This document shows positions 811-55,276 of a stretch of DNA of 64,000 bases, one piece after another. The stretch is taken from contig QPGO01000013.1 in the NCBI GenBank assembly GCA_008632985.1, positions 248,001 through 312,000 of the forward strand. The letters are read 5' to 3'. A program made the translations under genes and the position numbers. Origin of the DNA: Psammoneis japonica (taxonomy: Eukaryota). The notes below the pieces were generated by a model, which ran no database searches, was not told the origin of the DNA, and saw nothing but the letters and a program-made list of their open reading frames with translations. Within the stretch, counting starts at the first letter, position 1; the number at the start of each line of letters is the position of its first letter.

Positions 811-829
811 TGTCAAGCTTGCTCCTCTT

Positions 830-1190: not shown

Positions 1191-1466
1191 TGACAGAAAA
1201 TGAAGGCAAATGGCAAGAATTCAAACAACAACTCCTTGCTGCTGTCTAAATGGCAGATGAGTCTCCGCTCAGAGACCGTTGCAGGAGCCGAAAGACGTGC
1301 AAGTCGGCACAATCGGGCTGCTGTCATTGTTCTTGTGAGCCTTGTGGCTCGAAAGCAAACCACATCACGCGTGAACGCGCGGAACTAAAGCACACAAAAC
1401 TGTGCACGGTAAACTAAACAGCGCGCGATGCTTCGCGCGCACCTAAATCCTGTTCAAATCCTGTCA
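1191..1466 (-). repeat. 3' LTR of copia copy 1
   Basis: Direct repeat of 8025-8300 with TGACAG...CTGTCA termini; adjacent to the PPT. Confidence 0.97.
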
Positions 1467-4400
1467 CTCCCCAGTTTGCTTGAGGAGCCACAGAAACAGA
1501 TTCGACTTCGGATGGAATGAAGTTCCAGAACATGAGGGGGCGGAGAAGGTCCCAGATTTGGGAGCAACCCCAATGCTTGCTGAGAATGTCAGCAGGGTTG
1601 CGGGAGCCTTCGATGAAGTGGAACTCAAGGTGGCCAGAGGCAATTGCCTCACGCACACGGTGGAACGACAGTGCGGTGTGTCGCTTGTGTAACTTGGAGT
1701 GCGGGATGGTGGCACTGTCTACAACCGACTTGTTGTCACCGAACATGCAACTGACATTACGGATCGGGACGCCAAGGTGGCGCAGGGTGATGCGCAGGTC
1801 GATAATCTGCTCAACACAAGTCCTTGCGGCAACAAATTCAGACCCGCAGGTCGCAGTCTCCACGGTGGCTTGTTTCTTAGAGAACCAATCAGCCGGGAAT
1901 TTGTTGAGGAAGTGGAGCATTCCCATGACAGAGCGTCCGGTGAGCATGCAATGGCACAAGTTTGCATCGACGTAGTGGGTGGCAGTGACGAACTTGCCAA
2001 GGGGCAGTGGAGCGTCCTTCGGGATCATCTCTTCTGCTTCACCATACACGGAATGCATCCATTCATGGGCCGGAGCAGGGAGATCCGAACAGTCGGGCTC
2101 TTCCGTGCGAACGTGGAGAGCACCGTGTCGCATCTTGGAGAGGCACCCACAGACGCGCTTGGCACGATCCAAGTGGCCTTGACGGGGCGCAGCTCGGAAG
2201 CTAGAGAGTGACATGACGGCTGTGGCAATGTCAATTCGACCAAGGGACACTGCCCATTGGAGTGAACCAACAAGAGACTGGAACTTGTGGGTGCCATCGG
2301 GTCCCAGCAGTTCGGAAGTGTCCAGTTCGGGGTGGTCACCCTTCTCTAGAGGTGACAGGGCGTTGGTGGCAGGTTTCTCCCCAAACAGTCGGGCACAGCT
2401 GTCGACCATGCGCTCGATGTACTTGCGCGGAGACAGGCACAAGGTTCCGTCGGGTTCCCAGGAAAAGTCGCAACCCAGATGGAACTCAATGGGTCCCGCA
2501 CCCTTGAGCTTGAACTTGTGCTTTTCCGTGAGGGTGTCGACGAAAGATTGAGGGTCCTTCATGGCAATGGCGAGGTCATCCACATAAACGGCAATGCATT
2601 CACAGTGGTCGCCGTTCCTGCGCATCCAAATGTCGGGTTCGGCGCGGCAGGGGAAGAAGCCTTCAGCTCGCAGGCAGTCGGCGAAGCGCTCGTGCCAGCG
2701 GAGACCGGAGCTGCGCAGTCCATGCAGTGCCTTGTGGATGACAAGGATGTGTCCTTCGAGTTTGCCGAACTCGGGTCCAGCTGCAATGTAAAGCTTCTCC
2801 TTGGTGGTGGCTTCAAGGCAGGCATTGCCAATGTCGGTGGCCCATGTCTCCAACTCGTTGAGTTCGGCCAGGAAAATCATCAGCCGAAGGCCACGGAGGG
2901 AGACTGCTCCGGAGTGGACACTGTCGACAGGTGCGTCCGTGAGGTGCCCGTCGGCTACGAGTCGTGCCTTGTGGCGACCGTCGTGTTTCACGTCGTGCAC
3001 CAGGTGCACTCGGATCTTCTTGTGTCCCGCAGGAGGAGTGGAAGACTTGAAGGGCCCGCAGTCATGGAAGACTTCGTATTCGTCGAGTTGGTCCATCTCG
3101 AGATTAGTTGCGTCTCCCCACTTGCGGTTGCCGTTGCGTTCGTCTGGTGACATGGCGTGTTTGTAGTTCCGGGGAACTTCGCATCCATGCTTGTAGCGAG
3201 GTGCAGTGCGGAAGGAGCGAAGCTTGGCTTGGTTGGCCATGCGAAATGGCTTCTTTTGGCGCCTCGCGATGGTGCGGAACCGCTTCCAGCCATCCGTGTC
3301 GAGGAGTCCGTTCTCTCGTGCATAGATGGCACAGGTGACGGGGTCGTCCTTGGCGATGATGGCAAGAGGCTCGGACGTGATCTCCCCACTTTCCCATTCA
3401 AGCATGATGTTGTAGCTGGAGCCTTTCCAGGTTGGGTCGTGAGGCTTCAGAGGTCCTTCGTGTGACACGATGCGTCGAAATTTCCAAACAGTGGTGTCTT
3501 CGTCTTCTTGCTCAATGTGATTCATGATGTCATTGCAGGCAAGGACTTCCTCGCATTCGTCATTGTTGACAGAGCAGACGAACTCAGTGAGCTCGGGATT
3601 GCCATTCACTTTCCATTCGTGGTCTTCGACGGCCTTGACGATGCGAGCTCTGTGGCGTTGTCCATCCTCTTGTGGCTGCATGAGGAAGGCACGTCCAATG
3701 ATGTCTTGCGGATCGAAAACTGGCATCTTGGGTGTCCTGATCTCCCCATCAGGAGAGTCGACGGGGTTGTCGTCATGGCGAGATTTGATGATGGGTTCAG
3801 GTGGCTCCCCATCAGGAGGATCAAGACGCAGGTTTCGGACAGCAGGATCGGGGGTAGCGGAGCGGACGTTGGACCGGCAGAGGATCTTCTGATTCTTGTC
3901 AGATAGAATCTTGAAGGTCATCTGGTGGCCGACGTGCTCAGCAATGCCAACGAAGCGTCCACGCAACTCACGGGATTCGGACGGCCAATCGGAGTCATCG
4001 AGGTGGAAGCACACGGGTTCCCACCAGTGAAAGCGAAGCAATGGGCTGATGTCCGGGGTGGAGCCAGTGAGAGTCTCAAGGGGCGTGCGCCAGTGGAGAC
4101 GTGGGGACGCTGCATGGTTGAGCATGAAGCACACGCACATGAGCGCCAGCAGCCATGTGTGGGCGGGCGAACCAAAACGATCCATGACAGTGTTCGCCAT
4201 GCGCTTCACGGTCTGGTGTCGACGCTCGGCAAAGTTTTGGTGTTGCTGGTGAGGCTCACTTTGCCAGCTAGAGATGAAGAGGGCACGTAGGATCCCGAGC
4301 ACTTTGTTGCTGATCTCAACTTGAGCACGGTCGCCAATGAGTGTGGATGGGGCACCACGTTCACGGATCTGATCCTCGAGTGTGTTGACAAACTCTTTGT

Positions 4401-7083
4401 CCGTCTCAGTGCCATGGACGTCAGTGACAGTAGACTCGGTGCCAACAAACAGTTGGGCGCTGGTGCAACCAGAGTCGATGGCCGGGGTGTCGGCACAAAC
4501 GGTGTCAGTGGCGACAGGCTCGTTGCGGCGGTGCACATTAAGGGCGGGGTTGGGTGATTTGCAGGCCTTGCGAAGGTGTGCACCAGCGGGCATGCGGGCA
4601 TGCTGCGTGGTGCAGTCAAAAGTACGACGGACCGTGTCGGCAGGCAGGAAGCCAAAGCAAGGCCGAAGAGACTCGAAGGGGGGGTCCTTGGGCTGCACAG
4701 TGCGCTCCGGAGGTGGAACATCATCGCCCTGGGGGCCAATCGCATGCAGATGACACTCGTAGAACACGTCGTCGTTCGGAATGAGGTGATCATCGAGGGC
4801 GGACGCATGATCGGCAGACAAGGAAGCGGACATGATGGTCTCGTTGACAACGACACGATGACGGCAGTTGCCGCATTCGTCAAATGGGTTGGCAGTGGGG
4901 TCGTCCTGTGGGTCAGAGATCGCGTCGTACCACTGGTCGTCGTCAGTGACAGAGTGATCGAGGACGGAAGGGTCCCATGTGTCATCACCGGTGAGGATGA
5001 CATGGGGCAGGGTGTCCCATTCGGCGTCAGTGCAAGGTCGCATGGCAACACAAGGCAGGCCAGCCTTGATGTCAATGGGGATGACATGGCCATCAGGAGT
5101 GGCAATGCGTTGCAAGCCGTTGGGCACCTTGACAGAGCGATCGTTGACATCCTGTTTGTGCCATTCGAGCTGGCCGCAGGAATGGATGGTCTTGCCCTTG
5201 CCCGTGCATGCGTGCTGATGGAGCATGGCGATGACGGGACCACGCTGGGTCTCAACAACGGCACCAGCGGCGACAATGGGGATGTCCACCAATTGATGAT
5301 CGTCAATGCCCTGAACGTCGACTTGGCGAGAGGTGCGTGCAATGACGTGAACGTCGTCGCCAGCAATGCCGCCGTTGGCCCCACGATCGACCAGAGCGCC
5401 AGTGCGTGTGGAGCGATGAGCAGAAGCAGAGCAAATGACATTGTGGTTGTCAACGCGGCGGCAAGTGCGACCGTCAAGTTCCATGTCATCTGCAGAAGCT
5501 GGCGGGGTAGAGGAAGCAGCGGATGGCCCCGGTCGACTGGCATTGGGGGCTTGGTTAGGAGACAACAGACGCTGCAGATCACCGGGTGGCAGCGGCTTGC
5601 GCTTGGTGAGGTGCGCCAGGATGGGATTGTCCGAAGTGGCGTCCACATGTGGAGCGGAGTCACCAGAGTCAGCAGGAGTCGTGTTGGACAAGTTGACATC
5701 ACCGTCACTCCCAAGGCGTTGGTCATGAAGGTTAGCCGCAACAGACTCATGGCAGTTGCTGGCTCGCGGGTTGCGGGGAGGTGGACGAGAATGCTCAAGG
5801 ATGATCGCCTTGGAGGAATCGGGCAACGAATCCCAGAGCCGTTGGTGGTCGGGAGGGAGACGTCTCCATTGGACACCGGTGAGGCTGGGACCGTGGGTGT
5901 GGGCAGCATTGGCTTGAAGGACGTCAATGTCGCTGTCAATGTCGTAGAACACATCGTCGGATGGTTCCTCGGAGCAGACGTCGTGTGCGCATGTGGCGCG
6001 TCGGGGAGCTCAAGGTGTCGTCTTGGGTTGAAACGTGCTGTCGCACTGAGCTGCGGCGGAGAGGAGCAAGCCACAGTGTTGATCGCATGTGAGGCTCTTG
6101 CCACTCTGCGCATGATGCTGATCAGCTTGGTTCTTGACAGCACGGAGTTCCTCGACAGGGTGCACGGCATTCTCGAGCATGACGCGCTTCTGTCCTTCAG
6201 AGAAGTGGTCACTGGCCGGGATGAGTGCCTCGTGCTTGCGCAACTGATCTTGCCAATGAAGGATGAACCCGTGGGTCGGACCTTTCCAAGTGCCATCACC
6301 AAGACGCGCGGTGGTGAGGTGCGTGAGCAGGGTGGAGGACTCGACAGATGCGCGGGTGGAGGCAAGCGCGTGCTCAGACAAGGAGCGGCAGACGGTCTGT
6401 GCGTCAGAAGACCCCACATTTTCGCGAATGAGAGCCTTGCCCTTGTCGGTGAGAAGGATGCGTTCGAAGATGGCGAACATGTGCTTTTGCTGTTCAGCAA
6501 AGAGCAGTTTGTCTTCGGGGCTGGTCGGTTTGTACGACGAGTCTAGAATGCACTCGACGTCTTGGGCACGGGCTTGTGCCACAAGTGAGGTGTGCCAAGT
6601 GTGCCACTGCTTGTTGGATTTGAGAGCCGTGAAAGCGGTGGGATCACGCTTGATGCCTCGCTTGAAGTCCCGCACCGGGTCGCGTGCCTTGGTCGGGTTG
6701 GTGACATGTGGAGGTGCAAGGGGTGAGCTGCCGATGGACACAGAAGACATGTGGTCGGGGCTGAGGCGGCAGGCAAGGAACTCGTCATGCGTGGACAAAG
6801 AGGAGTCATTGGCAACGTCAAGACCTTTGTGTGCTTTGACAATGTACAGACTGACTGGCGCTGCTGACATGTTCTCATGACCACGGGGCAAAGGGATTGC
6901 ATCAGTGCCGTTGTCGCACTCAAGCGAGTCGATTTGGGACGGCATGAACGCGAACAGTTCCTGGTGCGAGTCCGTGCCGTCTTGGGCCAAAGCCAAACGA
7001 AGAGGACTCCCAGCACCTTGGGCAAGCACGGTTCCAACCACGTGCTCGAAACCATCGGTTTGTTGCTGACGAGTGAGAACCAT
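1414..7083 (-). pseudogene. gag-pol of copia copy 1; one in-frame TGA at 6010-6012 and heavy Tyr->His/Cys substitution
   Basis: ORFs 6010-7113 and 1414-5952 are in the same frame. Copy 2 has CGA where copy 1 has TGA. Motifs read KALHGL, NACLEA and VHDVK instead of KALYGL, NAYLEA and VYDVK. Confidence 0.92.
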
Positions 7084-8009
7084 GGTGGACAAAGGTGGTG
7101 TCAGGACAATCAATTCTGGCTGGGAAGCGAGGGTGGACTCGAAACTTGGGTGAGAATGGACTTGACTTGAAATGGACTTGACTTGAAATCTTGAACTATC
7201 TTAAAATCAGAAGTCGCCGGGCTTTGTTGTCCCGTTCGTTGTTGAGTGCCAAACTTCCCATCCGGTCCGCAGAGTTGTGCCGGCACGTCCGAACCCGCAG
7301 CTGGCGGCGCTTTGGGTTGCTTGCGAGCGGAGCAGCGGGTTGTAAACCCCTGCAGGCAAGCTGACTAGAGGTGGACAAGACCCCCGAACCGTTCTTGTTT
7401 TATGTCGGTTGGATTTCCCGATCAGGCTGGCTGGTTGACGCAGGCGTCAGGTGCTGTGGACGAACGAACAAACGCGGGAAAGCACCCTCGCCCCAACGTA
7501 GGCTGCAATCACGGCTGCCTGCTCTCACAGTCGTCCTCGTGGACCTAGTGGAACTGTAGAGCACCAGCAGTCCGGGGTAGATCAGGTGCAATGGACTCGG
7601 TGTGCTTGTAGAGTGGCAGCAAAACCGCAGTCCAAAGAGTGGATAAAGGTTCTTGGCCGTGAAGATATGCATATATATATACATGTCTTCAGCGACGAAG
7701 ATCCTTGAATATGTAGGGTTCTTGACCGTTAACCGAGGAACAGGTATATCAAGGGATGTTGATCAAGGATAGACTTGGATATGACCGTTGAATATAAGTC
7801 TTCAGCGATCAAAGGTAGTATAATCAATCCAGATATCCAGCGGTAAGGAGACTTGACGGTGACGTTAACTTCCTGCCGATGCCCTGGTATTGAATGCGCG
7901 TAGACTTGCCGATGTATGTAGAATATATACGGAGGTCCACGTAGAATTGAAATAGCGTCGTTGGTAAATCAACGACGACGATGGCGGTTGCTCAATGGGT
8001 TGACAATGA

Positions 8010-8024
8010 GCAAGACTGTTAATC
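8010..8024 (-). promoter_or_regulatory. Putative primer-binding site of copia copy 1, complementary to a tRNA-Asn anticodon arm
   Basis: gcaagactgttaatc on the + strand abuts the 5' LTR and contains the GUU anticodon loop CTGTTAA. The same sequence occurs in copy 2. Confidence 0.55.
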
Positions 8025-8300
8025 TGACAGAAAATGAAGGCAAATGGCAAGAATTCAAACAATAACTCCTTACTGCTGTCTAAATAGCAGATGAGTCTCC
8101 GCTCAGAGACCGTCACAGGAGCTGAAAGACGTGTAAGTCGGTATAATCGGGCTGCTGTTATTATTCTTGTGAGCCTTGTGGCTCGAAAGCAAACTACATC
8201 GCGCGTGAACGCGCGGAACTAAAGCACACAAAACTGTGCACGGTAAACTAAACAGCGCGCGATGCTTCGCGCGCACCTAAATCCTGTTCAAATCCTGTCA
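8025..8300 (-). repeat. 5' LTR of copia copy 1
   Basis: Direct repeat of 1191-1466; retains most of its TA sites. Confidence 0.97.
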
Positions 8301-8305
8301 CGGGG

Positions 8306-11300
8306 GGTGCTGACGTGCAAGTCTTCTTCCATTTGGCATTGCACCACCCGGCCAGATGTGGCATTTGAGCTTTTGGTCCACAGCCCACAACACAGTGCTG
8401 TTCTGCTGTGGCATTGCTGCAGCTTTCGCTTGCACCTGTGCTTCTTTTGCTCATCTGCTTCAGCTTCAAAAATGGGTGCCACAGCTTTGAGAGAGTCAGT
8501 TTTGAGGCAGATGACATGTTCTTTGTGCTGCCTCTCCTGCATCTTTCATTGCCGTGGCTTTGCTCTGCAGGTGTGCAACACATGGAAACATCAATGCTGG
8601 TGGCTGCACATGTCAGATGCACGTTTGGGCCAATGCAGCTGAGCATCAATCACGACCTTGCCCCTCTCATCTCTCAGTGGCTGCATGCAGCTGATCTGGC
8701 ATGCACAGTTTTCCAGGTTTTGTTTGCCCAGCAGGCATGCTTCTTGGTCCAGGGCACAAAGTTGCGTGCTTCTGTGTGCTGACTCCTTGGCTTTGCATTT
8801 TTCCTGGCTTGAACAATCACAGAAAGTGATGCTCCTGATGAGTGCCTTGCAGAATGGCAGCTGTCTTGTGTTGTCACAAGTGGGTGGCTCAAGTTCCCAA
8901 GCACTCCACATCCACTTGACCCCAACTTGAAGGGTCCCAATGTGGAGGAGTGAAAAAGAGGAGGATTGAGGAAGTTGTGCACATGAGTGCTCTGCATCAG
9001 TGGTGTGCACCAAATGTGTGCACTGCAGCCAGACTGTTTTGGCAGATGATGGGTCCGACCTCTTTTTAGATGGCCCAGTGGGTCTCGCTGAGATCTGCCT
9101 CTTCTCTCACTCTTTCTTGCCAGTGTGTGCATTGTTGCTGTTGCCAGCTTGCAGGGAGTTCTGTGTTGATTGCTGACTGGGCTCCTGTTGCCGCTCTTGG
9201 CAGGTTGTGGCCTTGTGTTGTGTTGCACTCTTCCACATTGTGAACCCCATCTTGGCTCACCTTGTTTGCAATCCAATCAAGTGTGACTCAAGTTCATGAC
9301 TCTGCAACAAGTGTTTTTTTTTCTTAAAGCCGCGGCATTTTTTGGACTGCACAACAATGCCAGTCTTCTGTGCACTCAGGAACAACTTCTTGGTGCCCTT
9401 GTTTCAACCAAGGTCATGTTTTGGAAAGACCCTTCTGTTCCTTGACGAGCCACAAAGTTCCTTGTCAGCCTCTGCAGTGGAGAGATGTTTGATCTGGGAT
9501 CTTTTGAGGATGAGAAGCACACACAATCAAAACATTGTGTTTGTGAGCTCTTCTCTGAACACATCCTTCACAACCTTGTCATGTGGAGAAGATGATGTGA
9601 GAGGAGCCCCCCACTGTTGGAAAAACTTGGCTTGCCAGAACAACAGAAAGTTGCAGCTCTTACCAACAAACAACAAACAGGAGACAAACTCAGCCACTGG
9701 AATGCCAAATTGATCTGCCACTTGTGTTGTTGGGGTTGTCAGCAGATTGCCATCCCTTTTGGTTGGTCTGGCACAGCTTTTCCCAGCTGGAAACAAAAAA
9801 ACAGGCTTTTGCAAATGCCAGAGCTTGGAAGATTGCTCAGAGCTTGCTGGTGCATTTGATGACATTGAGGGTGAGAAGGATTTTTCACTGACAAAGATGA
9901 AACATGTGCTGTCTGGTGTGTTCCTCAGGGCTCTGCTGGTTGATGGACTTGGTGACAATCCTTTTGCTGACTGATGCTGGCAGTCATCACAGCTGCACAG
10001 ACCAGATGTGTGACATTGCTCTGCTGTCAAGAAACAACTCTGGGAACAGCTCTGCATTCCCCAACATTGTGGCAATGGTGTGGGGATGGTCACCAACAAA
10101 AATGCTTCACAGTTCAGTGCCTCACCTTTGAGACCAAGAAAGGCTGAGCCAAATGAAGAGGCCAGGACATTGTTGTGGATGCCAAGGAACAACCCAATGA
10201 CAGCAGACAGGACTTGTGTGGTGAGTGCATTTTTGGTGTTTGAGAGTGACGACACTTCTCTTGAACATGCCGTTGCACTCTCATGCCTGCATCCAGAAGG
10301 CAGCAACTGCTGGCTGTTGGGCAAAAAGGTTCCTCAAATGTGCCGCTCCCCAGTGGGTTGCTTTCTCCTCCTGCTGCAACCAGCAGCACTGCTGAGAAGA
10401 GACGTCATCTTGCCAACAGGTCCGCCACTTTTTTGCACAAGAATGAGGGCCATTTTCAGCTGCATCTCACCACATCTCATGGTTTCTCACCAAACCTCCT
10501 CCTGATAAAATCTGACTTGTGGTTTCATGCAGTTTTGGGTCCATCAAGGAGATGGTTTCACCAAATTTGGGCTTTCACCCTCCATCTGGAATGATCATCC
10601 TGGTCATCTGCATTCCTTGCCACTTCAATTGTTGCAAACATGAAGCCATCCCATTCCTGTGCCCTCATTTGCCAGAAGTCAAATGTGGCCACAATGACAC
10701 TGGACAACATCCAACAAGACACATTGAGCTCAAAAAATTGACTTGATGCATGGTGCACACAAAGATTCCACTCAGGAGTCTCTGTTCAAATCCAAGTCAC
10801 GGTTCACATGTTTTGGACTTCTTGTCCCTCTCATCCATGGGAGTGACGAGCATGCTTGGTCTTGCCTTTCAAGACATCTGTTGGCCAAGAACCCCAAATG
10901 GCCACCATCATGTCCATGTCTCCACCATCATGTCCATGTCTTTGGGTGAGATGGACAAGTTCATCACCTGGTTTGAATGCAAAAATTGCTTGAAACCCAA
11001 CACACTGGGAATTCCAGCCTTGCAGAAGAACAGTCTGAGTGCTTGCTCAGTGCTTGCAAACCTCCCTCTTGGTGAAGCCTGTGGAACTGTGTTCCGCCAT
11101 TGGTGGGGCCACAGTTCCAGATGTGTGCTCCTCCTCTGTGCTTTTGTCTCTCTTCTTCTTCTTTGACAGCATGCTCACATGCAACTTGCTTTCTTGGAGT
11201 TCTTTGGCATGGTCAAAGAATTTCTGGCTGACACAAAAGCACACAGTCTGATGTCATTGACTCTGAACACCATGACTTTTTTGCCAGTTTTCTCATCTGG

Positions 11301-13880
11301 CTGTTGGAATTTGTCCACCACTTGGCTGTCATGTGTTGCACAGTGCTTGCTCTTCACATTGTCCTTTGAAGTGAGAATGTTTGATGTCATGCTCTTTGTT
11401 CCAAGCTTTGCAACCCTCCCCCCATCCAGGCATGGCACAGTCTTTGTCCAGGGTGTCCACTCCTGTGTTCATGGATGGGTCAACCTTGTTCTTGGCTGGT
11501 CACATGTTGTGTGCCAGTCTCCAGTTTGCTGCCATGCTGAGGGTGGAGCTGTTGTCAACGATGATCTCAATTGTCCATCTTGACTTTTTTCATTGGCTTG
11601 ATTTGTGCTTGTCTCTGGTCTTTCATTTGCCAGTTGCAACCTGTGCCATGCAGTGCTCCTGTTTTAGCTGGAGCAGGCTTTCAGTTGGATCTGGTGGTGT
11701 TGATGCTCACATTGTCACCATCCACCTCAAAAAGTGGTCATCATTCAGAAAGGGGGCTCCACTTTGGCCATGACCTCCTGCAGCAGAGAGGAGCCAGTGT
11801 CTGTGCCAAGAGGAAAAGTGTGACCACAAACAAGGGCTCGGGAGAGGAGCCAATCCTCACAAAGTCTAACAAATTGGAAAAAAAGATTTGTGGGGAAAAA
11901 TGCCAGACAGCAAAAACATTTTGCAGGGGGGGGTTTTCTCTGGCAGTTTTCCCATGAGCAATGTCACAACTCTGGTGCTGGTCCGCTGACCCTGGGGTGC
12001 AGTGTGCACAGACCAATGTCATCAGGGCCATGCAGTTGACAATCAATGTCTCCACTTTTCACATGGCCAGACCATGGCTGAATGCCACATCTTTCCATCA
12101 ATGAATGTGGGCAGATTTGCACTCATGCAAGGACATTGAGTGCTTGGGGTGATGAACACACTGCTCTGATGTGACTGCACAACACATCACATCCAAATTG
12201 CAGCAGCCCTTTCTGCATGATGGTGCGTGCTGGACATCTGAATGGAATGTGAGCACAGACAACATTCACAATTGTGAACAGAATCAGCAACAGCATCATT
12301 GTGTCAACAACAATGCTGGTTTTCAGAGAGTGTTTGTCTGGTTTGATCTGCCTTGCTGAGCTGCTGCACTTGCAAAAAAAATGCAACCTCTCCTGTCCTG
12401 CTGTCCATCACACAGAGATTTGCATGCTCTGCTGCTGCCACCCTGACACCACAAAAGAACTGCACACCAGTTGAGCAACATCCTCAAGAGCCAGGGATTT
12501 GAGACAAATCCACATGACATCTGTGCAGTGAATGAGGTGGTCAATGGAAATCAGTGCTCAGTGAGTGACCTCAAGATCTCTCACAGCATGGACTCTGCTG
12601 TTGTGACAGTTGTTCTGTTGAAGTCTTTGTTGCAGAAGAGTGTGCAGCAAACACTCTGATCTGCTGACCATGGCTCAAGTTGACATTGTCCACAAACATC
12701 TTGGCATGGCTGCTGGCCATGGCAAAAAAAGAGAAAGTGCAAGCTGGGCAGGCTCTTGTGTGTCAATGAAATGAGAGAGCCCCAACCTGCATGTGGTGAC
12801 ACAACCCTCTCCTGTTTGAAGTCAGTGAAGAGCACTCAGTGACTCCATTGGGTGCAGATGAAAAGGATGCAGTCTGCTCCATAAAAGGCTTGGCCAGACT
12901 CAAGCCGCAACTTTGTTTCTGTGCACACAAACCTGGGGCTGAGGAGTGGACATGGGTTGCTCTTGCTGAGCACATTTTGACATGAAAGGTCACATCACAG
13001 TTGCCTTGAGTTCAGGAGGAGGAAAAAATGCCAGACAACAACTTTTCCAAGCAAAAGCTGAGCATGAGGAGTTGCACAGCAACTGAGTTGGCTTGTGTGG
13101 TGGTGCACAATGGCATGCCCACACTTTTTTGTGGACAAGAATCTTTGTGCAGGGCCTGAGGTGATGGGAAACAAAGGAAGGGCAACAACCTCATCAAAAA
13201 AAGACAACAAGAGCATGCTGCTTGGTCTTGGAAGCCCAAAGCATGGGCAAATGTTGAGAGCTGAGCAAACAAAAAGTGCATCAATGTGAGATGCCTTTTC
13301 TTGACTGGCTGCACTCTGAAGGGAGACTTGGCCATAAAGTGTTGTCCAGCTGGGGCAGTGCAATTGGCTTTTTTTGTGCCAAGCTGCTGCAAGAGCTGTG
13401 CGGCTCTTTAGGTTTTAAAAAGTCAGACCATCAAGAACATGTCAAATGATGGCCTGGGTCAATGGGGTGGATGTGCCATCTTGTGAGCATCTGCAACCAA
13501 GAACAGCAACAGGACCAACTGAACAGAAAATGGTGCTGAAGATGATGCCAACTTTGGAGCAAGGTTTGCAAACAAGAACAAGAGTGCTGTGAGGGCAATG
13601 CAAGCTTGTGACAAAAAAATTCTGGACACTGGGCAAAAGAGAACAAAACTGGCAAAGTGAGAAAGAAGAGGGGCAAATGACATTGGCTTGACACTCTAAC
13701 ATGATTGTTTGTCCTGTCACTCATTGGTGCATGCAGCAGCCATTGCACAAGAATGGATCTGTGGTTTTGCATGTCCAGTGCCAAAACTGCCAGAAGTCAT
13801 TGTTTCAATGCAAGGGAAAGAAACCTCTTGCTTCTTCTCCTTCTTTGTCAACAATTTTTTCATGTTGTGCTTCAAAAACC
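8306..13880. mobile_element. Nested, highly decayed copia-type relics on both strands
   Basis: Fragmentary motifs, e.g. GFETNPHDICAVNEVVNGNQC (~12490, + strand; resembles copia RT GFxxNPYDxCV) and integrase-like fragments on the minus strand. Nearly devoid of TA and CG. Boundaries approximate. Confidence 0.6.
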
Positions 13881-13889
13881 AGGACCGCA

Positions 13890-14440
13890 TGCCAGCGGCC
13901 AGACTCTGCTGCAATCACCAGTCATGATGAGAGGCTGTGAACTGCAATGTGCAGAGTTGTGAGGCAGCTCTGGGCCCTTGTCTTATTCTGGATCATTGTG
14001 TGATGGCTGACTGAGGTGTGGAGTCAAAACATGGACCCAGCCAGTGGCCAGACTCTGCTGCAATCACCAGTCATGATGAGAGGCTGTGGGATGCAATGTG
14101 TGGAGTTGAGAGATTGACAGCTGACTGAGGTGTGGAGTCAAAACACAGACCGAGCCAGTGGCCAGACTCTGCTGCAATCACCAGTCATGATGAGAGGCTG
14201 CAGACTGCAATGATCTGTGTGAAGTTGAGAGGAGGAACTGAGCCCTTGTAAACACTGGATCATTGTGTGATGGCTGACTGAGGTGTGGAGTCAAAACATG
14301 GACAGCCAGTGGCCAGACTCTGCTGCAATCACCAGTCATGATGAGAGGCTGTGGACTGCCATGTGTGGAGTTGAGAGGGAGCTTTGGGCCCTTGTGTCAT
14401 GCTGGATCATTGTGTGATGGCTGACTGAGGCATGGAGTCA
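13890..14440. repeat. Tandem repeat, 4 copies of a ~115-150 bp unit
   Basis: Core gccag(t/c)ggccagactctgctgcaatcaccagtcatgatgagaggctg at ~13891, ~14040, ~14154 and ~14305. Confidence 0.9.
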
Positions 14441-14769
14441 TTCTGTTGAACTGCAAGAACACTTGCTTGTCTCATTGGGAAAACCATGACAACATTTGAT
14501 GATGTGAACAGATGTGATCTCTTCTGCTGGCCCTTTGCCCATGCCATCTGCTGCTCCTTCCTGGCAGCTGTGCTTCTGCCCTTTTGGTTCTGCTGATGCC
14601 TTTGCCACTCACCTCATTCAATCTCCCAAATGCACCTCTCTTCTCTGCTGCCACCGCTGGTCACACTTGACCTGCTTGATCATGCCCAGCAGAGAGGAAG
14701 TTCCTGTAAATGAGAAATCAAACTACGTCAAAAGTACAAGGATGAGAAGATGCAGTTATCCAATCGATT

Positions 14770-16086
14770 CTATCTCATGTCATTGTGCGCTTCATCAATC
14801 TTTCGAATGGCCTCGAGACCACCTGACACAATGCCAACAACTTTGCCTGATAAATCTCTGTCGTCTGCAAGAGGATCATCTGGGTTGATTCTGACAAGCA
14901 TTGCTTCACCACCCCTCCTGGTTAGCTGCTCAACTATGGACTCTGACTGACAGCGGGATGTGGGCACATTATGGCCACACCCAATTTCAATGATGCACAC
15001 TTGCATGGGGTCAAGATGACCTCGCTCTATTGCCAGAGAGAAGAGAGCCCTTTTCCACAAGTCAAATCTTTGTTCCTGCGCCTCATTGTCTGACCAATGC
15101 AGGTCTCCAAACATCAAAATTGCCGGTCTTGCGGGTGCTCCGCACTCACCACATTGGGGCCAATTGGGAGAATCAGAGCTCCACCCTTCACCCTCTGCCC
15201 CAATCATGCACTTCAAAGGTGCCTGCCTTTTCCGGCCCACGACATGCCCCACGTGTGTGCCAGTGTCGGCATTGCCACCAGGTTCTTCCTGATTGATGGC
15301 ATTGTCATTTTCATCAGTGGCAGACTTTACAGCAATGGCAGTTTGAGGCGCCAACATTGAGTCTGAATCCACTGCAAAGCGATGGTTCATCGGTGCCTGC
15401 CAGATGTTTGCCGCGCAATTTTTTTGTGGGCCCAACCAACGCTCAACGCCTTCAAGGTTTTGGTTCGACTCAAATCGAAGTCGAGTCTTGGAACACTGCC
15501 AAAGCTCAATGTTGCCGTGACATTCACGCATCTCGTTGGCATCAAATACGTCAAAGCTGTGCGCATCGACGTTGGACGTAAAGGTGAAGAAAGCCCCGGC
15601 ACATCCCTGCACCTCGCATGGCTTGGTGTCAGAGAAATCAACCTTGTCCGAATCATCATCGTGAACAAGAGACGAAGCGGAGACTTGCCCTACTTTGGCT
15701 CGAATCTCATCAGCTGTCGGTTTCTTGTTCTTGTCATCTCGCCACTTGGCAACAATGTGACATCCCTCGTGAGGCTGTGCATCACGACAGTCGTTGAAAC
15801 ATTGCCCCCACCATCCACAAAAAATGCCAGGATCGGTTTGAACCCAGTGCGGCTGACAAATGTCGTGACATTCGAGTCCACGATCCAAGTGCGCCGGGAC
15901 ACGAGCAACGTCCGCACACACGGCCAGCCCACTGTCTGCGCTAAAACCGGCGCCCGTCATGAGAATCAAGACGTGAGCTTGGGCGAGTGCTTCTGCTGCC
16001 ATGACGCAGTTTGCGTTAACGGTGTCTTTGAGTTGTTCCAGTGTTTCAGAATCACGGCTGCGCTGAAAGAAATCTTCGTCAATCAT
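14770..16086 (-). pseudogene. Sir2/sirtuin-family NAD-dependent deacylase; ORF open but hypermutated, function uncertain
   Basis: Motifs TGAGFSADSGL, TSNVDAH, ECHGN, CGECG..RPAILMFGD, EIGCG and RINP. No Tyr in the 454-aa ORF. ATG at 16086 (MIDEDFF). Confidence 0.8.
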
Positions 16087-16207
16087 GATGATGCCTCGTT
16101 CGCTCTTCACAATCAGCCGCACTTTGCAGTGCACTGATTAGATTGAGCATCACATGGAACATCATCGATCCGAAACGCACACGAAATAAAGATCGTAAGA
16201 AGCACGA

Positions 16208-16413
16208 TGGGGGACGTCTTCGGAAGTGAGACTGTCGAAGAAAGTTACGTAGATTTTGCACTAAAACAGTCTGTCAATCAGTGCGATTGGGTGTTTGGGA
16301 CCTCTGGACAGATCCTGCGTGTTTTCTTTTGCGCACAAATTGCACTGGGAAAACCCCAAACGCACTGGCGATCAGACCGCCTTCGACGATCTCACTTCCA
16401 AAGACGCCCCCCA
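16208..16413. mobile_element. MITE with TGGGGG...CCCCCA termini and 4-bp TSD ACGA
   Basis: ~33-bp imperfect TIRs; ACGA at 16204-16207 and 16414-16417; reverse-complement homolog at 63630-63855. Confidence 0.88.
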
Positions 16414-16439
16414 ACGAGGCACTGTGGAGTGAGCAGGAC

Positions 16440-16624
16440 TGGGGGAAGTCTCCAGCCAGCTGCTGGCTGAAGAATTTTGTGTGGAAATTGCACTGAAAGA
16501 TTCTGTCAATCTGTGCGTTAGGGGGTTTTGGTGAACGCTGGACAGACTCGTCTTCTTTTGCGTGCGTAAAAATTGTACTTGCAAACCCCCATTTCAGCCA
16601 GCAGCTGGCTGGAGTCTTCCCCCA
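16440..16624. mobile_element. Related MITE with 4-bp TSD GGAC
   Basis: 32-bp TIR tgggggaagtctccagccagctgctggctgaa with one mismatch; GGAC at 16436-16439 and 16625-16628; interior resembles the adjacent MITE. Confidence 0.88.
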
Positions 16625-16939
16625 GGACGGAAAACCCAAAAACGAAGCGGGATTCAGGATGGAGGCGGATGGCGAACGCGGGACAGACCTCCCTCCAAGC
16701 CGTCAGCGCGCAGCTCGCGCGGCGCTCGCGAGAACTTCGGACTGGTGAGGAGCGCGAGGACCTCGCAGTGACAACGATGACGAACAACAACACCGCACTT
16801 TGAAACATTCAGAACGCGAGAACAAACCTTGAGATCGTTGCAAAAGCAGCTGGAAGAGAAACTGATTCCATATTCATAGATAGAAGAAAGGACGTTTTTC
16901 GTTTACGCTTTGTTTACGGTGATTTTTGAAGCTGCTGTC

Positions 16940-17878
16940 ATGACTCTGTTCAGATTATTGGTGAGGTCTTTTATTCTTTCTTGCACCCTCCTCTTTGGTG
17001 CAGTTTCGGTTTCTCACACGACTGTTCCGCTCTTCTTTTTGAATTTTCAGTTTTTCATCTTGTTATGTACGATTGTACTAGTTGTTTGGGCTGAAAAACC
17101 GGTTCGCAATGTTCGAGTGAGTTTCGGGAATCGAAAAAAGGACTACAAAATATCGGGGGTTTCCACCGTGGGAGAATTACAGCTGCGCATTCAACAAAAG
17201 ACGGGTATAGATCCATTGCAACAGGGCCGAGTCATGTTTGATGGCCGGTCTCTGTCGCCTTTGGATAGGTTGCGTGACGTGGGCGTACGGAGTGGTTCTC
17301 GTATACGCGTCGTCTCGCCGCCAATCGCGCAAAAGTCCATGCCAACAATCACGAGTACTCCATTCACCACGCCAAGCGAGAGTTTTACTCGACTTGCAGA
17401 ATTTGCGGCTGGTTGTTTTTCTCAAATTGAATTTCGAATGAGCGTAGACTACATTTGGGATATATTGAAAGCGTCTCAAAGAGTCTTGAACAGCACAGAA
17501 TTTCAGGAATACATTGCAGACCCAAAGGAACTACTGCACATGTTCGAAGACCTTCGAAAAAGGCTACTGAACGAAATTGATTTTGCCGAAATGCAGGACC
17601 TTCCTATAGACAATGCCTTGTATGATACGTTATTCAAGTCCCTCAACAACTCCGACTCGTGGCGAAGCTTCTTGTTAACTCAAATTGAACAGTTTCGAAA
17701 CATTGATCTCAGCAGCCCGGTAATGTCTCAAGTTAAACGAGAGCTTACAAAGGCGTTTGATGAGGGTATGGATATGCTTCACGACTCGGACTTTCGAGAG
17801 TTCTTGAAGGATGAGGACCCAGGATTCTATGATTTCTTACAGGAGAACCTGGACGACTTTTCAGACAGCAATGAATAA
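16940..17878 (+). CDS. Ubiquitin-like-domain protein with hydrophobic N-terminus and helical C-terminus
   Basis: UBL-like segment VRVSFG...STVGELQLRIQQKTGIDPLQQGRVMFDGRSLSPLDRLRDVGVRSGSRIRVV; normal TA content. A small intron near 17003-17050 is possible. Confidence 0.75.
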   Translation: MTLFRLLVRSFILSCTLLFGAVSVSHTTVPLFFLNFQFFILLCTIVLVVWAEKPVRNVRVSFGNRKKDYKISGVSTVGELQLRIQQKTGIDPLQQGRVMFDGRSLSPLDRLRDVGVRSGSRIRVVSPPIAQKSMPTITSTPFTTPSESFTRLAEFAAGCFSQIEFRMSVDYIWDILKASQRVLNSTEFQEYIADPKELLHMFEDLRKRLLNEIDFAEMQDLPIDNALYDTLFKSLNNSDSWRSFLLTQIEQFRNIDLSSPVMSQVKRELTKAFDEGMDMLHDSDFREFLKDEDPGFYDFLQENLDDFSDSNE

Positions 17879-18167
17879 TGTTAGATGACTTTCATAGTTT
17901 TATCATTTCGTGTTGCCCCTTGGGATGTTATCTTGTTGAATCAGCTAGCTGCTAGTAGCTAGTCTGGAGCTTCGTGGCGACTGAGATGCTTTCGCAACAT
18001 CTTCAGATGAAGCGGACGACGGGTAGACTCCTGCGCCAAAGTTCGGCCTTGCGCGTCTTTTTTGGCGGGACGACGGAAGCGCATGCGAGGAATTTAGGGC
18101 TAGGGCCCTATCTTCATGTTCAATGTTGTGTTGCAGCAAAAAGCAACGCTTCATTCCAACTGACAAA

Positions 18168-48162: not shown

Positions 48163-48438
48163 TGACAGGATTTGAACAGGATTTAGGTGCGCGCGAAGTA
48201 TCGCGCGCTGTTTAGTTTACCGTGCACAGTTTTGTGTGCTTTAGTTCCGCGCGTTCACGCGCGATGTAGTTTGCTTTCGAGCCACAAGGCTCACAAGAAT
48301 AATAACAGTAGCCCGATTATACCGACTTACACGTCTTTCGGCTCCTGTAACGGTCTCTGAGCGGAGACTCATCTGCTATTTAGACAGCAGTAAGGAGTTA
48401 TTGTTTGAATTCTTGCCATTTGCCTTCATTTTCTGTCA
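48163..48438 (+). repeat. 5' LTR of copia copy 2 (the least mutated of the four LTRs)
   Basis: Direct repeat of 55000-55276. Confidence 0.97.
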
Positions 48439-49381
48439 GATTAACAGTCTTGCTCATTGTCAACCCATTGAGCAACCGCCATCGTCGTCGTTGATTTACC
48501 AACGACGCTATTTCAATTCTACGTGGACCTCCGTATATATTCTACATACATCGGCAAGTCTACGCGCATTCAATACCAGGGCATCGGCAGGAAGTTAACG
48601 TCACTCTCAAGTCTCCTTACCGCTGGATATCTGGATTGATTATACTACCTTTGATCGCTGAAAACTTATATTCAACGGTCATATCCAAGTCTATCCTTGA
48701 TCAACATCCCTTGATATACCTGTTCCTCGGTTAACGGTCAAGAACCCTACATATTCAAGGATCTTAGTCGCTGAAGACATGTGTATATATACACACATGT
48801 CTTCACGACCAAGAACCTTTATCCACTCTTCGGACTGCGGTTTTGCTGCCACTCTACAAGCACACCGAGTCCATTGCACCTGATCTACCCCGGACTACTG
48901 GTGCTCTGCAGTTCCACCAGGTCCACGAGGACGACTGTGAGAGCAGGCAGCCGTGATTGCAGCCTGCGTTGGGGCAAGGGTGTTTTCCCGCGTTTGTTCG
49001 TTCGTCCACAGCGCCTGACGCCTGCGTCAACTGGCCAGCCTGATCGGGAAATCCAACCGACATAAAATGAGAACGGTTCGGGGGTCTTGTCCACCTCTGG
49101 TCAGCTTGCCTGCAGGGGTTTACAACCCGCTACTCCGCTCGCAAGCAACCCAAAGCGCCGCTGGCTGCGGGTTCGGACATGCCGGCACAACTCTGCGGAC
49201 CGGATGGGAAGTTTAGCACTTGACAACGAACGGGACAACAAAGCCCGGCGACTTCTGATTTTAAGACAGTTCAAGATTTCAAGTCAAGTCCATTTCAAGT
49301 CAAGTCCATTCTCACCCAAGTTTCGAGTCTGCCTTCGCTTCCCAACCAGAATTGATCATCCTGACACCACTTTTGTCCACC

Positions 49382-55052: not shown

Positions 55053-55276
55053 TTTGCCGTGCACAGTTTTGTGTGCTTCAGTTCCGCACGTTCACGCGCG
55101 ATGTAGTTTGCTTTTTGAGCCACAAGGCTCACAAGAATAATGACAGTAGCCCGATTGTACCGACTTACACGTCTTTCGGCTCCTGCAACGGTCTCTGAGC
55201 GGAGACTCATCTGCCATTTAGACAGCAGCAAGGAGTTGTTGTTTGAATTCTTGCCATTTGCCTTCATTTTCTGTCA
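55000..55276 (+). repeat. 3' LTR of copia copy 2
   Basis: Direct repeat of 48163-48438 with 12 substitutions and 1 indel. Confidence 0.97.

What the first reader, a model, noticed from the sequence alone, without database searches (positions are those of the whole stretch)
14770..16086. Host-type Sir2 gene with zero tyrosines: apparent spread of the mutator into a neighbouring gene
The 454-aa ORF is open with sirtuin motifs intact, but has no Tyr. Cys or His occupies positions where Tyr would be expected (LAVCAD, IFCGWWG, NDCRD, HEGCHIV). It abuts the repeat domain, and TA content recovers gradually over ~16,130-16,900. This suggests that the process spreads in cis into a non-retroelement gene and could generate Cys/His-rich alleles or cryptic pseudogenes.
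Basis: partly seen in the sequence, partly recalled or inferred. Interest (0 to 1): 0.8.

Follow-up and report, generated by a model that had tools for sequence, protein, structure and literature searches.

The report
Hypermutated tyrosine-free allele of sirtuin gene
One of the two copies of an ordinary sirtuin-type gene in what looks like a diatom has had about four in five of its TA steps rewritten to CA or TG, which removed every tyrosine codon, by the same process that scars the neighbouring repeats, while the other copy is intact.

Summary
The ORF at 14770-16134 (minus strand, 454 aa; 438 aa from the ATG at 16086) has no Tyr, while 18 aligned homologues have 8-16. All 7 conserved Tyr columns are Cys (6) or His (1) here; only 9 of 136 other conserved columns differ. 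The gene has 12 TA against about 46 expected.

Contigs of a public run from the same organism hold a second form at about half depth. At 25 of 26 sites where the window has C/G and the other form T/A, the other form reads TA. It has Tyr at codons 116, 125, 173 and 309, as the orthologues do. So the window allele is derived and was mutated in place, on both strands. It also lost CG in the part next to a TA- and CG-free repeat domain.

These transitions cannot create stop codons, so the open frame says nothing about function. A transcript-like assembly holds only the intact form.

A TpA-only mutator of this kind is in print only as a 2026 preprint on the chlorarachniophyte Bigelowiella natans. 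New here are a diatom-like host, spill-over into a single-copy host gene, and restriction to one allele.

The parts
14770..16134 (-). Hypermutated allele of a single-copy sirtuin-family gene. It is 454 aa from the GTG, or 438 aa from the homologue-aligned ATG at 16086. It has 0 Tyr and 12 TA, and ends in a TAG stop at 14770-14772.
   Evidence: The model has a sirtuin fold.
14770..15400 (.). The 3' part of the gene, where CG is also depleted (rho 0.33-0.51). All 5 in-gene allele differences of the opposite direction (15258, 15307, 15398, 15624, 15645) read CG in the other allele and TG or CA here.
8500..14700 (.). Repeat domain almost free of TA and CG and rich in CA/TG (rho 1.8-2.0). It lies next to the 3' end of the gene. 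It holds tandem repeats (13872-14440) and a remnant of a copia-like polyprotein (8251-8613). None of the 17 stop-to-stop frames tested hit Pfam at E below 0.03.
16205..16416 (.). MITE-like element with 36-nt terminal inverted repeats, just upstream of the gene start. It is a high-copy family (contig depth about 16,000 against 63 in the flank). At 4 places it reads CA or TG where the copy at 63631-63855 reads TA.
16439..16625 (.). Second MITE-like element with 33-nt terminal inverted repeats. The allele-specific differences end inside this pair of elements: from 16598 onwards a single contig matches the window with 0 differences.
16910..17878 (+). Neighbouring ubiquitin-domain gene with normal TA, which marks the far edge of the affected tract. 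One contig of run X2 lacks 90 nt with GT..AG ends (16960-17049).
1191..8300 (-). Full-length copia-type LTR retrotransposon with 277-bp LTRs, a 1512-aa polyprotein containing RVT_2, and a CGGGG target-site duplication. TA is depleted but CG is normal. The 5' LTR and about 0.9 kb of leader keep their TA.
48163..55276 (+). Second copy of the same copia element, 96.85% identical, with a TTTCC target-site duplication. It sits inside an older TA- and CG-free repeat. It shows the same TA-only depletion and the same difference between its two LTRs.

Best explanation
The window carries one of two alleles of an ordinary single-copy sirtuin-family gene of a diatom-like alga. This allele was hit in place, on chromosomal DNA, by a mutational process specific to the TA dinucleotide. 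The process turns TA into TG or CA (A-to-G on either strand). It also marks 88 of the 128 500-bp bins of this window, including two copia retrotransposons and older repeat domains. Roughly 44 of about 56 TA sites in the gene were converted.

Tyr is the only amino acid whose codons must contain TA, and TAT/TAC is a favoured context, so every Tyr codon was lost, mostly to Cys (TGT/TGC). A-to-G and T-to-C changes can never create a stop codon, so the frame stays open without any selection. In the 3' 600-900 bp, next to the repeat domain, the allele also lost CG by CG-to-TG/CA changes, the usual trace of cytosine methylation. This suggests that silent chromatin had reached into the gene on this chromosome.

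Shown: the direction of change, the TA specificity, action on both strands, restriction to one allele, and single-copy status. Inferred: that the hit came through silent chromatin or its targeting signal extending from the flanking repeats, that this allele is silent and non-functional while the intact allele does the work, and that the chemistry is enzymatic deamination of adenine in DNA.
For: (1) Polarity. All 7 conserved Tyr columns are Cys or His in the window, against 9 of 136 other conserved columns changed. The other allele has TAT/TAC at codons 116, 125, 173 and 309. It matches the orthologue consensus at 6 of the 9 deviating conserved columns in the visible range (116, 119, 125, 173, 246, 433).

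(2) Spectrum. There are 35 visible differences inside the CDS. At 26 the window has C/G and the other allele T/A, and 25 of these 26 read TA in the other allele (16 CA, 9 TG in the window). Five run the other way and all 5 read CG in the other allele. Four are transversions. The tally for run X2, window to other form, is C>T 29, G>A 18, T>C 9, A>G 2, transversions 9.

(3) No sign of selection. Of the 25 TA-type changes, 14 are non-synonymous and 11 synonymous, and they hit invariant residues. Y73 aligns with the Phe of the GIPTF cofactor loop of Sir2-Af2.

(4) Allelic, single-copy. The two forms have contig depths of 36.8 and 26.5, and 33.8 of 65, while the unique flank has 63.2. No other copy is in the window.

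(5) Same signature around it. The two copia copies differ by 209 transitions and 9 transversions. These include 34 CA-versus-TG double differences and 52 TA-versus-CA/TG sites. Three pairs of old repeats show 27, 30 and 21 such doubles. Three pairs of normal duplicates show 0, 0 and 2, with many transversions.

(6) Context. Surviving TA in the depleted DNA are enriched in TTAA (3.4x) and CTAA (2.8x). ATAT is absent (0 of 220 against 57 of 662) and ATAC is rare (0.19x). This fits the 8 Cys to 1 His outcome at Tyr codons.

(7) Gradient. CG rho is at most 0.51 up to about 15400, and TA is depleted up to about 16600.

(8) Precedent. TpA-only A/T-to-G/C hypermutation has been measured in mutation-accumulation lines of Bigelowiella natans (bioRxiv 10.64898/2026.01.13.699255; I read the abstract, Results and Discussion).
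Against: The other haplotype seems to carry the same repeat right up to the gene: one contig at full depth covers 14322-14775. Yet its gene is intact, so lying next to the repeat is not sufficient. The 5' LTR and leader of the left copia (about 7200-8300) keep normal TA although mutated tracts flank them on both sides. Within the gene, surviving TA are denser at the repeat-proximal 3' end (6 in 14770-15030) than in the middle, so there is no simple TA gradient away from the repeat. Only 35 of the 60 differences in the 1400-nt contig were displayed; codons 73-106 of the other allele were not seen. Depths come from contigs, which the tool warns are not copy numbers. The library type of run X2 is not on record, so expression of the intact allele alone is an inference. 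Contigs also drop rare variants. No genome was held, so a paralogue elsewhere cannot be strictly excluded. No enzyme was identified.
Confidence: 0.8

Rival explanations
1. The origin is the same TpA mutator, but it did not arrive by linear spreading from the adjoining repeat. It was aimed at this allele by a sequence- or transcript-based signal. Candidates are small RNAs from the high-copy MITE-like elements in its promoter, or antisense read-through from the repeat domain that produces double-stranded RNA over the gene. It could also reflect a chance epigenetic switch of one allele.
For: The other haplotype appears to share the adjoining repeat but is not mutated. The affected tract matches the transcription unit plus the two MITE-like elements (14770 to about 16600). 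The TA-normal copia leader sits between mutated tracts. In B. natans, hypermutation switched on in only 11 of 15 lines, which its authors read as a regulated or epigenetic trigger.
Against: The loss of CG graded from the repeat side looks like encroachment from the 3' flank. No small-RNA or antisense data exist here. Whether the MITE-like elements are also present on the other haplotype could not be seen.
Confidence: 0.25
2. The gene is cargo of a transposable element or a multi-copy sequence, and was hit as a repeat in the way RIP hits duplicated DNA.
For: It is boxed in by repeats on both sides. It appears intronless, since the transcript-like contig aligns with no gaps.
Against: Its depth is like that of the unique flank and unlike that of the MITE-like elements. 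There is no second copy in the window. Orthologues occur widely as ordinary expressed genes of diatoms and other algae. The intact form is collinear with the window allele over 1400 nt with 0 gaps.
Confidence: 0.05
3. The editing took place on RNA or cDNA: ADAR-like editing of a transcript, or deamination of single-stranded cDNA, followed by reverse transcription and integration. The window gene would then be an edited retrocopy.
For: Copia elements are the other TA-only targets. Their sense strands are rich in C and His (His 79, Tyr 13 in 1513 aa). ADARs prefer a 5' U (stated in the preprint's Discussion).
Against: Both outcomes occur in the gene (16 CA, 9 TG). The intact form lies at what looks like the same locus. 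The mutated tract runs past the transcript into the MITE-like elements. Each copia has its own target-site duplication, yet its two LTRs differ; the two LTRs are identical at insertion (recalled, textbook), so these changes came after integration.
Confidence: 0.04
4. The Tyr-free protein is a working sirtuin that selection shaped to do without tyrosine.
For: The frame is open. The GAG loop, the TSNVDAH motif, the catalytic His of ECHGN and the four Zn cysteines are all kept. 127 of 136 conserved non-Tyr columns are kept.
Against: TA is also lost at synonymous and cross-codon sites (11 of the 25 TA-type changes are synonymous). Seven Tyr that are invariant or nearly so from diatoms to green algae are replaced. 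The intact allele persists. These transitions cannot create stop codons, so an open frame is expected without selection. The high retention elsewhere fits a recent event.
Confidence: 0.03
5. The pattern is a sequencing or assembly artefact, for example modified bases in silent DNA misread as C or G.
For: The window differs from the run's contig at 14322-14775 by 5 substitutions and 3 small indels, so the assembly is not perfect.
Against: Contigs of run X1 reproduce the window allele exactly (for example 15484-15696 with 0 differences at depth 36.8) beside the other form. However, that run may be the very data the window was assembled from. The same signature appears as fixed differences between repeat copies.
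Confidence: 0.02

Closest known systems
TpA-specific hypermutation of integrated viral DNA in Bigelowiella natans (Mettrop et al., bioRxiv 10.64898/2026.01.13.699255; abstract, Results and Discussion read)
   Same: The changes are almost only A-to-G and T-to-C, confined to TpA, and give TpG or CpA depending on the strand. The long-term trace is TpA depletion with CpA+TpG gain, clustered along the genome and enriched in reverse-transcriptase and transposase genes. The process acts on chromosomal DNA and is not always switched on.
   Different: The host here groups with diatoms, not with a chlorarachniophyte. The target is a single-copy host gene, and only one of its two alleles. The depletion is far deeper (TA rho 0.01-0.17 against 0.45 for the NCLDV region). 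In older repeats it is coupled to CG loss. I found a flanking-base preference (TAT favoured, TAA spared) that the parts of the preprint I read do not mention. No de novo mutation rate was measured here.
[quoted passage not shown]
   Same: A mutator aimed at repeats spills a kilobase or so into adjacent single-copy genes. The result is heavily mutated alleles beside intact ones in the population.
   Different: RIP changes C to T, mainly at CpA, so it creates TA and stop codons (recalled). The process here runs the opposite way: it destroys TA and cannot create stops. RIP needs duplicated DNA and a sexual phase (recalled). Nothing is known about the timing here.
Editing of retroelements by APOBEC (C-to-U on cDNA) or ADAR (A-to-I on double-stranded RNA) that becomes fixed in genomes (PMC4866542, search listing only)
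   Same: Context-specific transition clusters in retrotransposons, read as host defence. ADAR shares the preference for a 5' U/T.
   Different: Those routes need an RNA or cDNA stage and leave a strand-specific trace. The sirtuin allele has no such stage and was hit on both strands.
Methylation-driven CpG decay in diatom transposable elements (DNMT5a-dependent CG methylation of TEs in Phaeodactylum, PMC9998398, passages read)
   Same: CG-to-TG/CA loss in the old repeat domains and in the 3' part of the gene.
   Different: It accounts for only a minority of the changes in the gene (5 of 35 visible). It cannot explain the loss of TA.

Membership tests
Sir2 / sirtuin superfamily | Match to the Pfam SIR2 model (PF02146) above its gathering score | tested here: not met
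   The window protein scores 19.3 bits against a cut-off of 24. Many homologues carry a precomputed PF02146 hit. A profile of the 19 aligned sequences hits the Sir2-Af2 structure 1ma3 at E 5e-5.
Sir2 / sirtuin superfamily | Sirtuin fold: a Rossmann domain plus a small zinc-binding domain | tested here: met
   The AlphaFold model has mean pLDDT 68 and pTM 0.71. All listed Foldseek PDB matches are sirtuins. The best are 1ici at E 3e-8 and SirTM 5a3a with target-normalised TM-score 0.74.
Sir2 / sirtuin superfamily | GAG nucleotide loop, catalytic His, and four Zn-binding Cys (motif roles recalled, not taken from a call) | tested here: met
   TGAGFSADSG, TSNVDAH, H206 in ECHGN, and C214, C240, C328 and C331 are invariant in all 19 sequences, the window allele included.
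Sir2 / sirtuin superfamily | NAD-dependent deacylase or ADP-ribosyltransferase activity | not testable with these tools
   This needs an enzyme assay of both alleles.
TpA-specific hypermutation (B. natans type) | Changes are almost only A-to-G and T-to-C | tested here: met
   Polarised by orthologues and the other allele, 26 of the 35 visible in-gene differences are T/A-to-C/G in the window. Five are CG-to-TG/CA and four are transversions.
TpA-specific hypermutation (B. natans type) | Changes are confined to TpA and give TpG or CpA | tested here: met
   25 of 26 fall on TA (16 CpA, 9 TpG).
TpA-specific hypermutation (B. natans type) | The target is foreign or repeated DNA | tested here: not met
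   The gene is a single-copy host gene. The surrounding copia elements and repeat domains do meet this feature.
TpA-specific hypermutation (B. natans type) | A measured local rise in the de novo mutation rate | not testable with these tools
   This needs mutation-accumulation or pedigree sequencing.
Fungal RIP | C-to-T transitions, mainly at CpA, that create TpA | tested here: not met
   The direction is the opposite: TA is destroyed, and the orthologues show that TA (Tyr) is the ancestral state.
Fungal RIP | Dependence on duplicated sequence and on a RID/DNMT4-type enzyme | not tested
   No genome is held. Diatom DNMT4 proteins are reported to be related to RID, with function unknown (PMC9998398, passages).
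RNA- or cDNA-stage editing (ADAR / APOBEC type) | A strand-specific trace acquired during a reverse-transcription cycle | tested here: not met
   Both strands of the gene were hit (16 to 9). Within each independently inserted copia the two LTRs differ.

The most novel reading that the evidence does not exclude
Diatoms, or a diatom-like lineage, have a chromatin-coupled DNA editing system that converts A to G at TpA, preferring TAT/TAC, directly on silent chromosomal DNA. It is a mirror image of fungal RIP. Together with the Bigelowiella case, it may be an ancient genome defence of the SAR lineages. Because it never creates stop codons, it leaves long open 'ghost' reading frames and Tyr-free, Cys/His-rich alleles. 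It can also switch on, allele by allele, in host genes next to repeats, turning a reversible epigenetic silencing event into a permanent genetic one.
Probability: 0.45. Interest if true: 0.9.

Novelty: new variant of a known kind. Interest (0 to 1): 0.78.

Why it matters
A natural process that edits adenine, or its partner thymine, in chromosomal DNA at one specific dinucleotide is in print only once, as a 2026 preprint on another algal group (as far as six literature searches show).

This locus adds several things. It points to a second, ecologically dominant lineage. It shows the process acting in place on a non-mobile single-copy gene, which rules out an RNA or cDNA route there. It provides an internal control, because the intact allele is present in the same organism. 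It links the process to CG loss typical of methylated DNA. It reveals a flanking-base preference that explains why tyrosine codons vanish.

For genome annotation it is a warning. Because these transitions cannot create stop codons, heavily mutated dead genes and dead transposons stay open and will be called as proteins. For evolution, it shows how a repeat-directed defence can erode or diversify the host genes beside repeats. For technology, the enzyme behind it would be a natural DNA A-to-G editor.

Tried and rejected
- No whole genome is held for this window. The proteome-wide screen for Tyr-free ORFs and a genome-wide search for paralogues could not be run.
- No RNA holder was listed among the sequencing runs. 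Expression rests only on the transcript-like behaviour of run X2, whose library type is not on record. Run X3 laid nothing.
- The read-laying output showed 40 of 122 differing places, and its cap is one call. The other allele's state at codons 73, 82, 89 and 106 was therefore not seen.
- The intact allele's protein is not in the protein collection; the best hit is 48% identical by the search's BLASTP figure. Cluster look-ups gave no organism names for the closest homologues.
- Pfam scans found no family below E 0.03 in 17 frames of the adjoining repeat domain and none at E 0.01 in 13 frames of other TA-depleted stretches. What those repeats once were stays unknown, apart from a copia-like remnant at 8251-8613.
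- The histidine-kinase paralogues (1-815 against 57637-58452) were checked as a possible second case of spill-over. They show ordinary divergence with many transversions and serve only as a control.
- The 3' neighbour of the mutated A among the 123 recent events between the two copia copies showed no clear TAT preference (C 58, G 26, T 22, A 17). The context preference therefore rests on the surviving TA and is provisional.
- A strand bias in the gene is weak: 29 to 18 over all sites (p 0.14) and 8 Cys to 1 His at Tyr codons (p 0.04).
- A phmmer search of the single protein against PDB sequences found nothing.
- Earlier findings of this scan held nothing on this genome or sequence. The word hits were unrelated phage cases.
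- Six literature searches found no report of TpA-directed hypermutation in diatoms. The library lacks most subscription journals.
Full report
**1. The observation**

The minus-strand ORF 14770-16134 encodes 454 aa from a GTG.

The ORF has no Tyr, 20 Cys and 17 His. I aligned 18 of the 120 listed homologues (511 had E<=0.001). They have 8-16 Tyr each, mean 11.7. In all 7 columns where at least 80% of the homologues have Tyr, the window has Cys (6) or His (1). Only 9 of the 136 other conserved columns differ (Fisher p 5e-8). Two less conserved Tyr positions (codons 309 and 395) are also Cys.

At the DNA level the CDS has 12 TA. Base composition predicts 79. The TA ratio of undisturbed genes in the same window (rho 0.588, 40 TA per kb) predicts about 46 (Poisson p 2e-9). 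One of the 12 is the TAG stop.

**2. What the gene is**

The single sequence scores below the Pfam SIR2 cut-off (19.3 against 24 bits). Three lines of evidence still place it in the sirtuin superfamily:
- Many homologues carry PF02146.
- A profile of the alignment hits archaeal Sir2 structures.
- An AlphaFold model (pLDDT 68, pTM 0.71) finds only sirtuins in the PDB listing. The best are 1ici at E 3e-8 and SirTM 5a3a with target-normalised TM-score 0.74.

The nucleotide loop, the catalytic His and the four Zn cysteines are intact.

Homologues are ordinary genes of diatoms, dinoflagellates, a pelagophyte and a green alga. In a tree of 34 rows (the window, P0001-P0023 and the named hits; the other listed homologues were left out), the window falls in a clade of 28 rows with support 99/95. 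That clade holds all five named diatom species and excludes the other groups. The named hits to the neighbouring SPX-MFS transporter gene are all diatoms. The nearest relatives of either gene are only 48-54% identical, so the species itself is not in the protein collection.

**3. The surroundings**

By TA and CG content the window falls into three states.
- Normal genes have TA rho about 0.6 and CG rho about 1.
- TA-only depletion marks two copies of a copia LTR retrotransposon (1191-8300 minus strand, 48163-55276 plus strand; 96.85% identical) and the sirtuin gene.
- Depletion of both TA and CG, with CA/TG at 1.7-2.1 times expectation, marks 8500-14700, 22500-33500, 35500-48000 and 55300-57500. 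These are made of old repeat families 78-85% alike.

TA rho is below 0.25 in 88 of the 128 500-bp bins, and 54 of those also have CG rho below 0.4.

The sirtuin stop codon lies about 70 bp from the first TA- and CG-free domain. Two MITE-like elements with terminal inverted repeats (16205-16416 and 16439-16625) lie directly upstream of the gene's start. They belong to a very high-copy family (contig depth about 16,000 against 63).

**4. The mutational signature is real and specific**

The two copia copies differ by 209 transitions and 9 transversions. About 146 of the roughly 183 events fall on pyrimidine-purine steps:
- 34 sites read CA in one copy and TG in the other;
- 52 read TA against CA or TG;
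- 60 read CG against CA or TG.

A CA-versus-TG pair is what independent conversion of one ancestral TA on opposite strands would leave. Three pairs of old repeats show 27, 30 and 21 such doubles. Three pairs of duplicates in normal DNA show 0, 0 and 2, with transversions common. So the signature is not the general mutation spectrum of this genome.

**5. The decisive evidence: a second allele**

Contigs of a public run from the same organism (X1, genome-like) hold two forms of the gene. For 15484-15696, one contig is identical to the window (depth 36.8) and one carries 10 differences (depth 26.5). Elsewhere the alternative letter has 33.8 of 65 or 28.9 of 62.8. The unique flank 16598-18000 is one contig at 63.2 with 0 differences. 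The tool warns that contig depth is not copy number, but the halves add up to the flank, as two alleles of a diploid would.

A second run of the same sample (X2) has a 1400-nt contig covering 14765-16164. It differs from the window at 60 places with no gaps, and it holds only the alternative form.

The table displayed 40 of 122 places. It is complete up to 15788, because the displayed sites equal the difference counts of contig records 4 and 5. Of the 35 displayed differences inside the CDS:
- at 26 the window has C/G and the other form T/A, and at 25 of these the other form reads TA (window CA 16, TG 9);
- 5 run the other way, and in all 5 the other form reads CG;
- 4 are transversions.

The other form encodes Tyr at codons 116, 125, 173 and 309. 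It restores the orthologue consensus at 6 of the 9 deviating conserved columns in the visible range. None of the 35 alternative codons is a stop.

The direction is therefore settled: the window allele is derived. About 44 of about 56 TA sites were converted. This estimate uses the X2 tally (C>T 29, G>A 18), which includes a few places outside the gene. The other allele's TA density, about 41 per kb, equals that of normal genes.

**6. Why every tyrosine, why mostly cysteine, and why the frame stays open**

Tyr is the only amino acid whose codons must contain TA. Among the 220 TA that survive in depleted DNA, compared with 662 TA in normal DNA:
- TTAA is enriched 3.4-fold and CTAA/TTAG 2.8-fold;
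- ATAT is absent (0 against 57) and ATAC/GTAT is 0.19-fold (all four p < 1e-6).

Read as A-to-G in 5'-TAN-3', TAT is the best substrate and TAA the worst. A Tyr codon offers TAT or TAC on the coding strand, which predicts TGT/TGC, that is Cys. That was the outcome at 8 of 9 positions. The surviving TA in the gene are mostly of the TAA and TAG kind, including the stop codon.

By simple codon logic, no stop codon contains C, and a G that came from an A can arise only from another stop (TAA to TGA or TAG). These transitions therefore never create a stop. The open frame, and the many long ORFs in the TA-free domains, are no evidence of selection. Fourteen of the 25 TA-type changes are non-synonymous, and they hit invariant residues. 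Y73 aligns with the Phe of the cofactor-binding loop of Sir2-Af2. The allele is probably crippled, but this was not tested.

**7. How the gene came to be hit**

CG is depleted (rho 0.33-0.51) from the repeat boundary to about 15400 and normal beyond. TA is depleted through the whole gene and partly through the MITE-like elements, and is normal from about 17200. At other domain borders in the window, TA loss likewise reaches about 500 bp further than CG loss. The young copia copies have lost TA only. This fits a fast TA process and a slow, methylation-type CG decay, both working in the same silent chromatin (diatom TEs are CG-methylated: PMC9998398, passages).

My reading is that silent chromatin, or its targeting signal, came to cover this allele between the repeat domain and the MITE-like elements, and that the mutator followed it.

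Three results count against a simple distance rule:
- The other haplotype seems to have the same repeat up to the gene, yet is intact.
- The 5' LTR and leader of each copia keep their TA while the body and the 3' LTR lost theirs.
- Surviving TA in the gene are densest at the repeat-proximal end.

An allele-specific, possibly chance or RNA-guided switch is therefore a serious variant (rival 1). It would echo the on/off behaviour among the B. natans lines.

**8. Expression**

No run is on record as RNA, so expression is an inference. Three observations support it:
- X2 covers the two genes but not the repeat domain.
- One X2 contig lacks a 90-nt GT..AG segment of the neighbouring gene that X1 retains.
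- The X2 contig for the sirtuin gene spans just the transcription unit.

If X2 is a transcript assembly, the intact allele is expressed and the mutated one was not assembled. Contigs drop minor variants, so the mutated allele's silence is not shown.

**9. Comparison with what is known**

The signature matches the TpA-only hypermutation measured in mutation-accumulation lines of Bigelowiella natans: 230 of 231 changes A-to-G or T-to-C, all on TpA, in two integrated viral regions, in only some lines, with an ADAT2-like deaminase proposed (supplements not seen).

The spill-over resembles RIP leakage into single-copy genes in fungi (PMC2973834, passages), but with the opposite chemistry. RNA- or cDNA-stage editing is excluded for this gene. 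An artefact is unlikely, because short contigs reproduce both forms.

Six literature searches found no report of such a process in diatoms.

**10. Verdict**

The case is strengthened by the discovery of the intact allele. The finding is a new variant of a very recently described kind of process: a different lineage, a host-gene target, restriction to one allele, coupling to CG loss, and a flanking-base preference. The enzyme, the trigger and the silence of the mutated allele remain inferences.

Noticed in passing
window 1191-1467, 8025-8301, 48163-48438, 55000-55276: The two copia copies have different 5-bp target-site duplications (CGGGG and TTTCC), so they are independent insertions. Yet both 5' LTRs (and about 0.9 kb of leader) keep their TA, while both 3' LTRs lost 9-11 TA. 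Six of those sites are shared, with the same outcome. Parallel hot spots, gene conversion between the copies, or editing of a late single-stranded cDNA end could each explain part of this. None explains all of it.
   Followed up: partly
window, all TA-depleted stretches: The TA that survive the process are mostly TTAA and CTAA/TTAG. ATAT is absent (0 of 220 against 57 of 662 in normal DNA). This suggests a preference for TAT and avoidance of TAA. The preference was not seen among the recent differences between the two copia copies.
   Followed up: partly
window 16205-16416 and 16439-16625; related copy at 63631-63855: Two MITE-like elements with 36- and 33-nt terminal inverted repeats lie side by side in the sirtuin promoter. 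Contig depth there is about 16,000 against 63 in the flank, so the family is present in hundreds of copies.
   Followed up: partly
window 13515-13817: The TA- and CG-free repeat domain also exists in two forms at about half depth each: one with 0 differences, one with 36 differences plus 6 gap letters in 303 nt. The two haplotypes therefore seem to have diverged by about 12% there, far more than in normal DNA.
   Followed up: no
window 14322-14775: The only contig of run X1 covering this stretch has full depth (62) but differs from the window by 5 substitutions and 3 small indels. The cause is either errors in the window assembly or a filtered-out contig.
   Followed up: no
window about 15420-15490 (codons about 216-238 of the ORF): The protein has a 21-residue insertion (after WQCSK) that none of the 18 aligned homologues has. 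It is CG-rich and in frame. The transcript-like contig aligns across it without a gap, so it is probably not an intron.
   Followed up: no
window 1-815 and 57637-58452: This is an inverted pair of histidine-kinase gene segments, 86.6% identical. Each lies on the 3' side of one of the copia copies. Their divergence is ordinary, with many transversions, and they served as a control.
   Followed up: yes
window 1414-5952 (minus) and 49352-55052 (plus): The copia polyprotein frames are rich in His and C on the sense strand (Tyr 13, His 79, Cys 42 in 1513 aa; C 1503 against G 1117). This hints at extra T-to-C pressure on the sense strand of the retroelement beyond the loss of TA.
   Followed up: no
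window 8500-14700, 22500-33500, 35500-48000: With TAA and TAG nearly gone, these domains are full of long open frames on both strands (up to 360 aa) that match no Pfam family. A gene caller would probably annotate them as proteins.
   Followed up: partly
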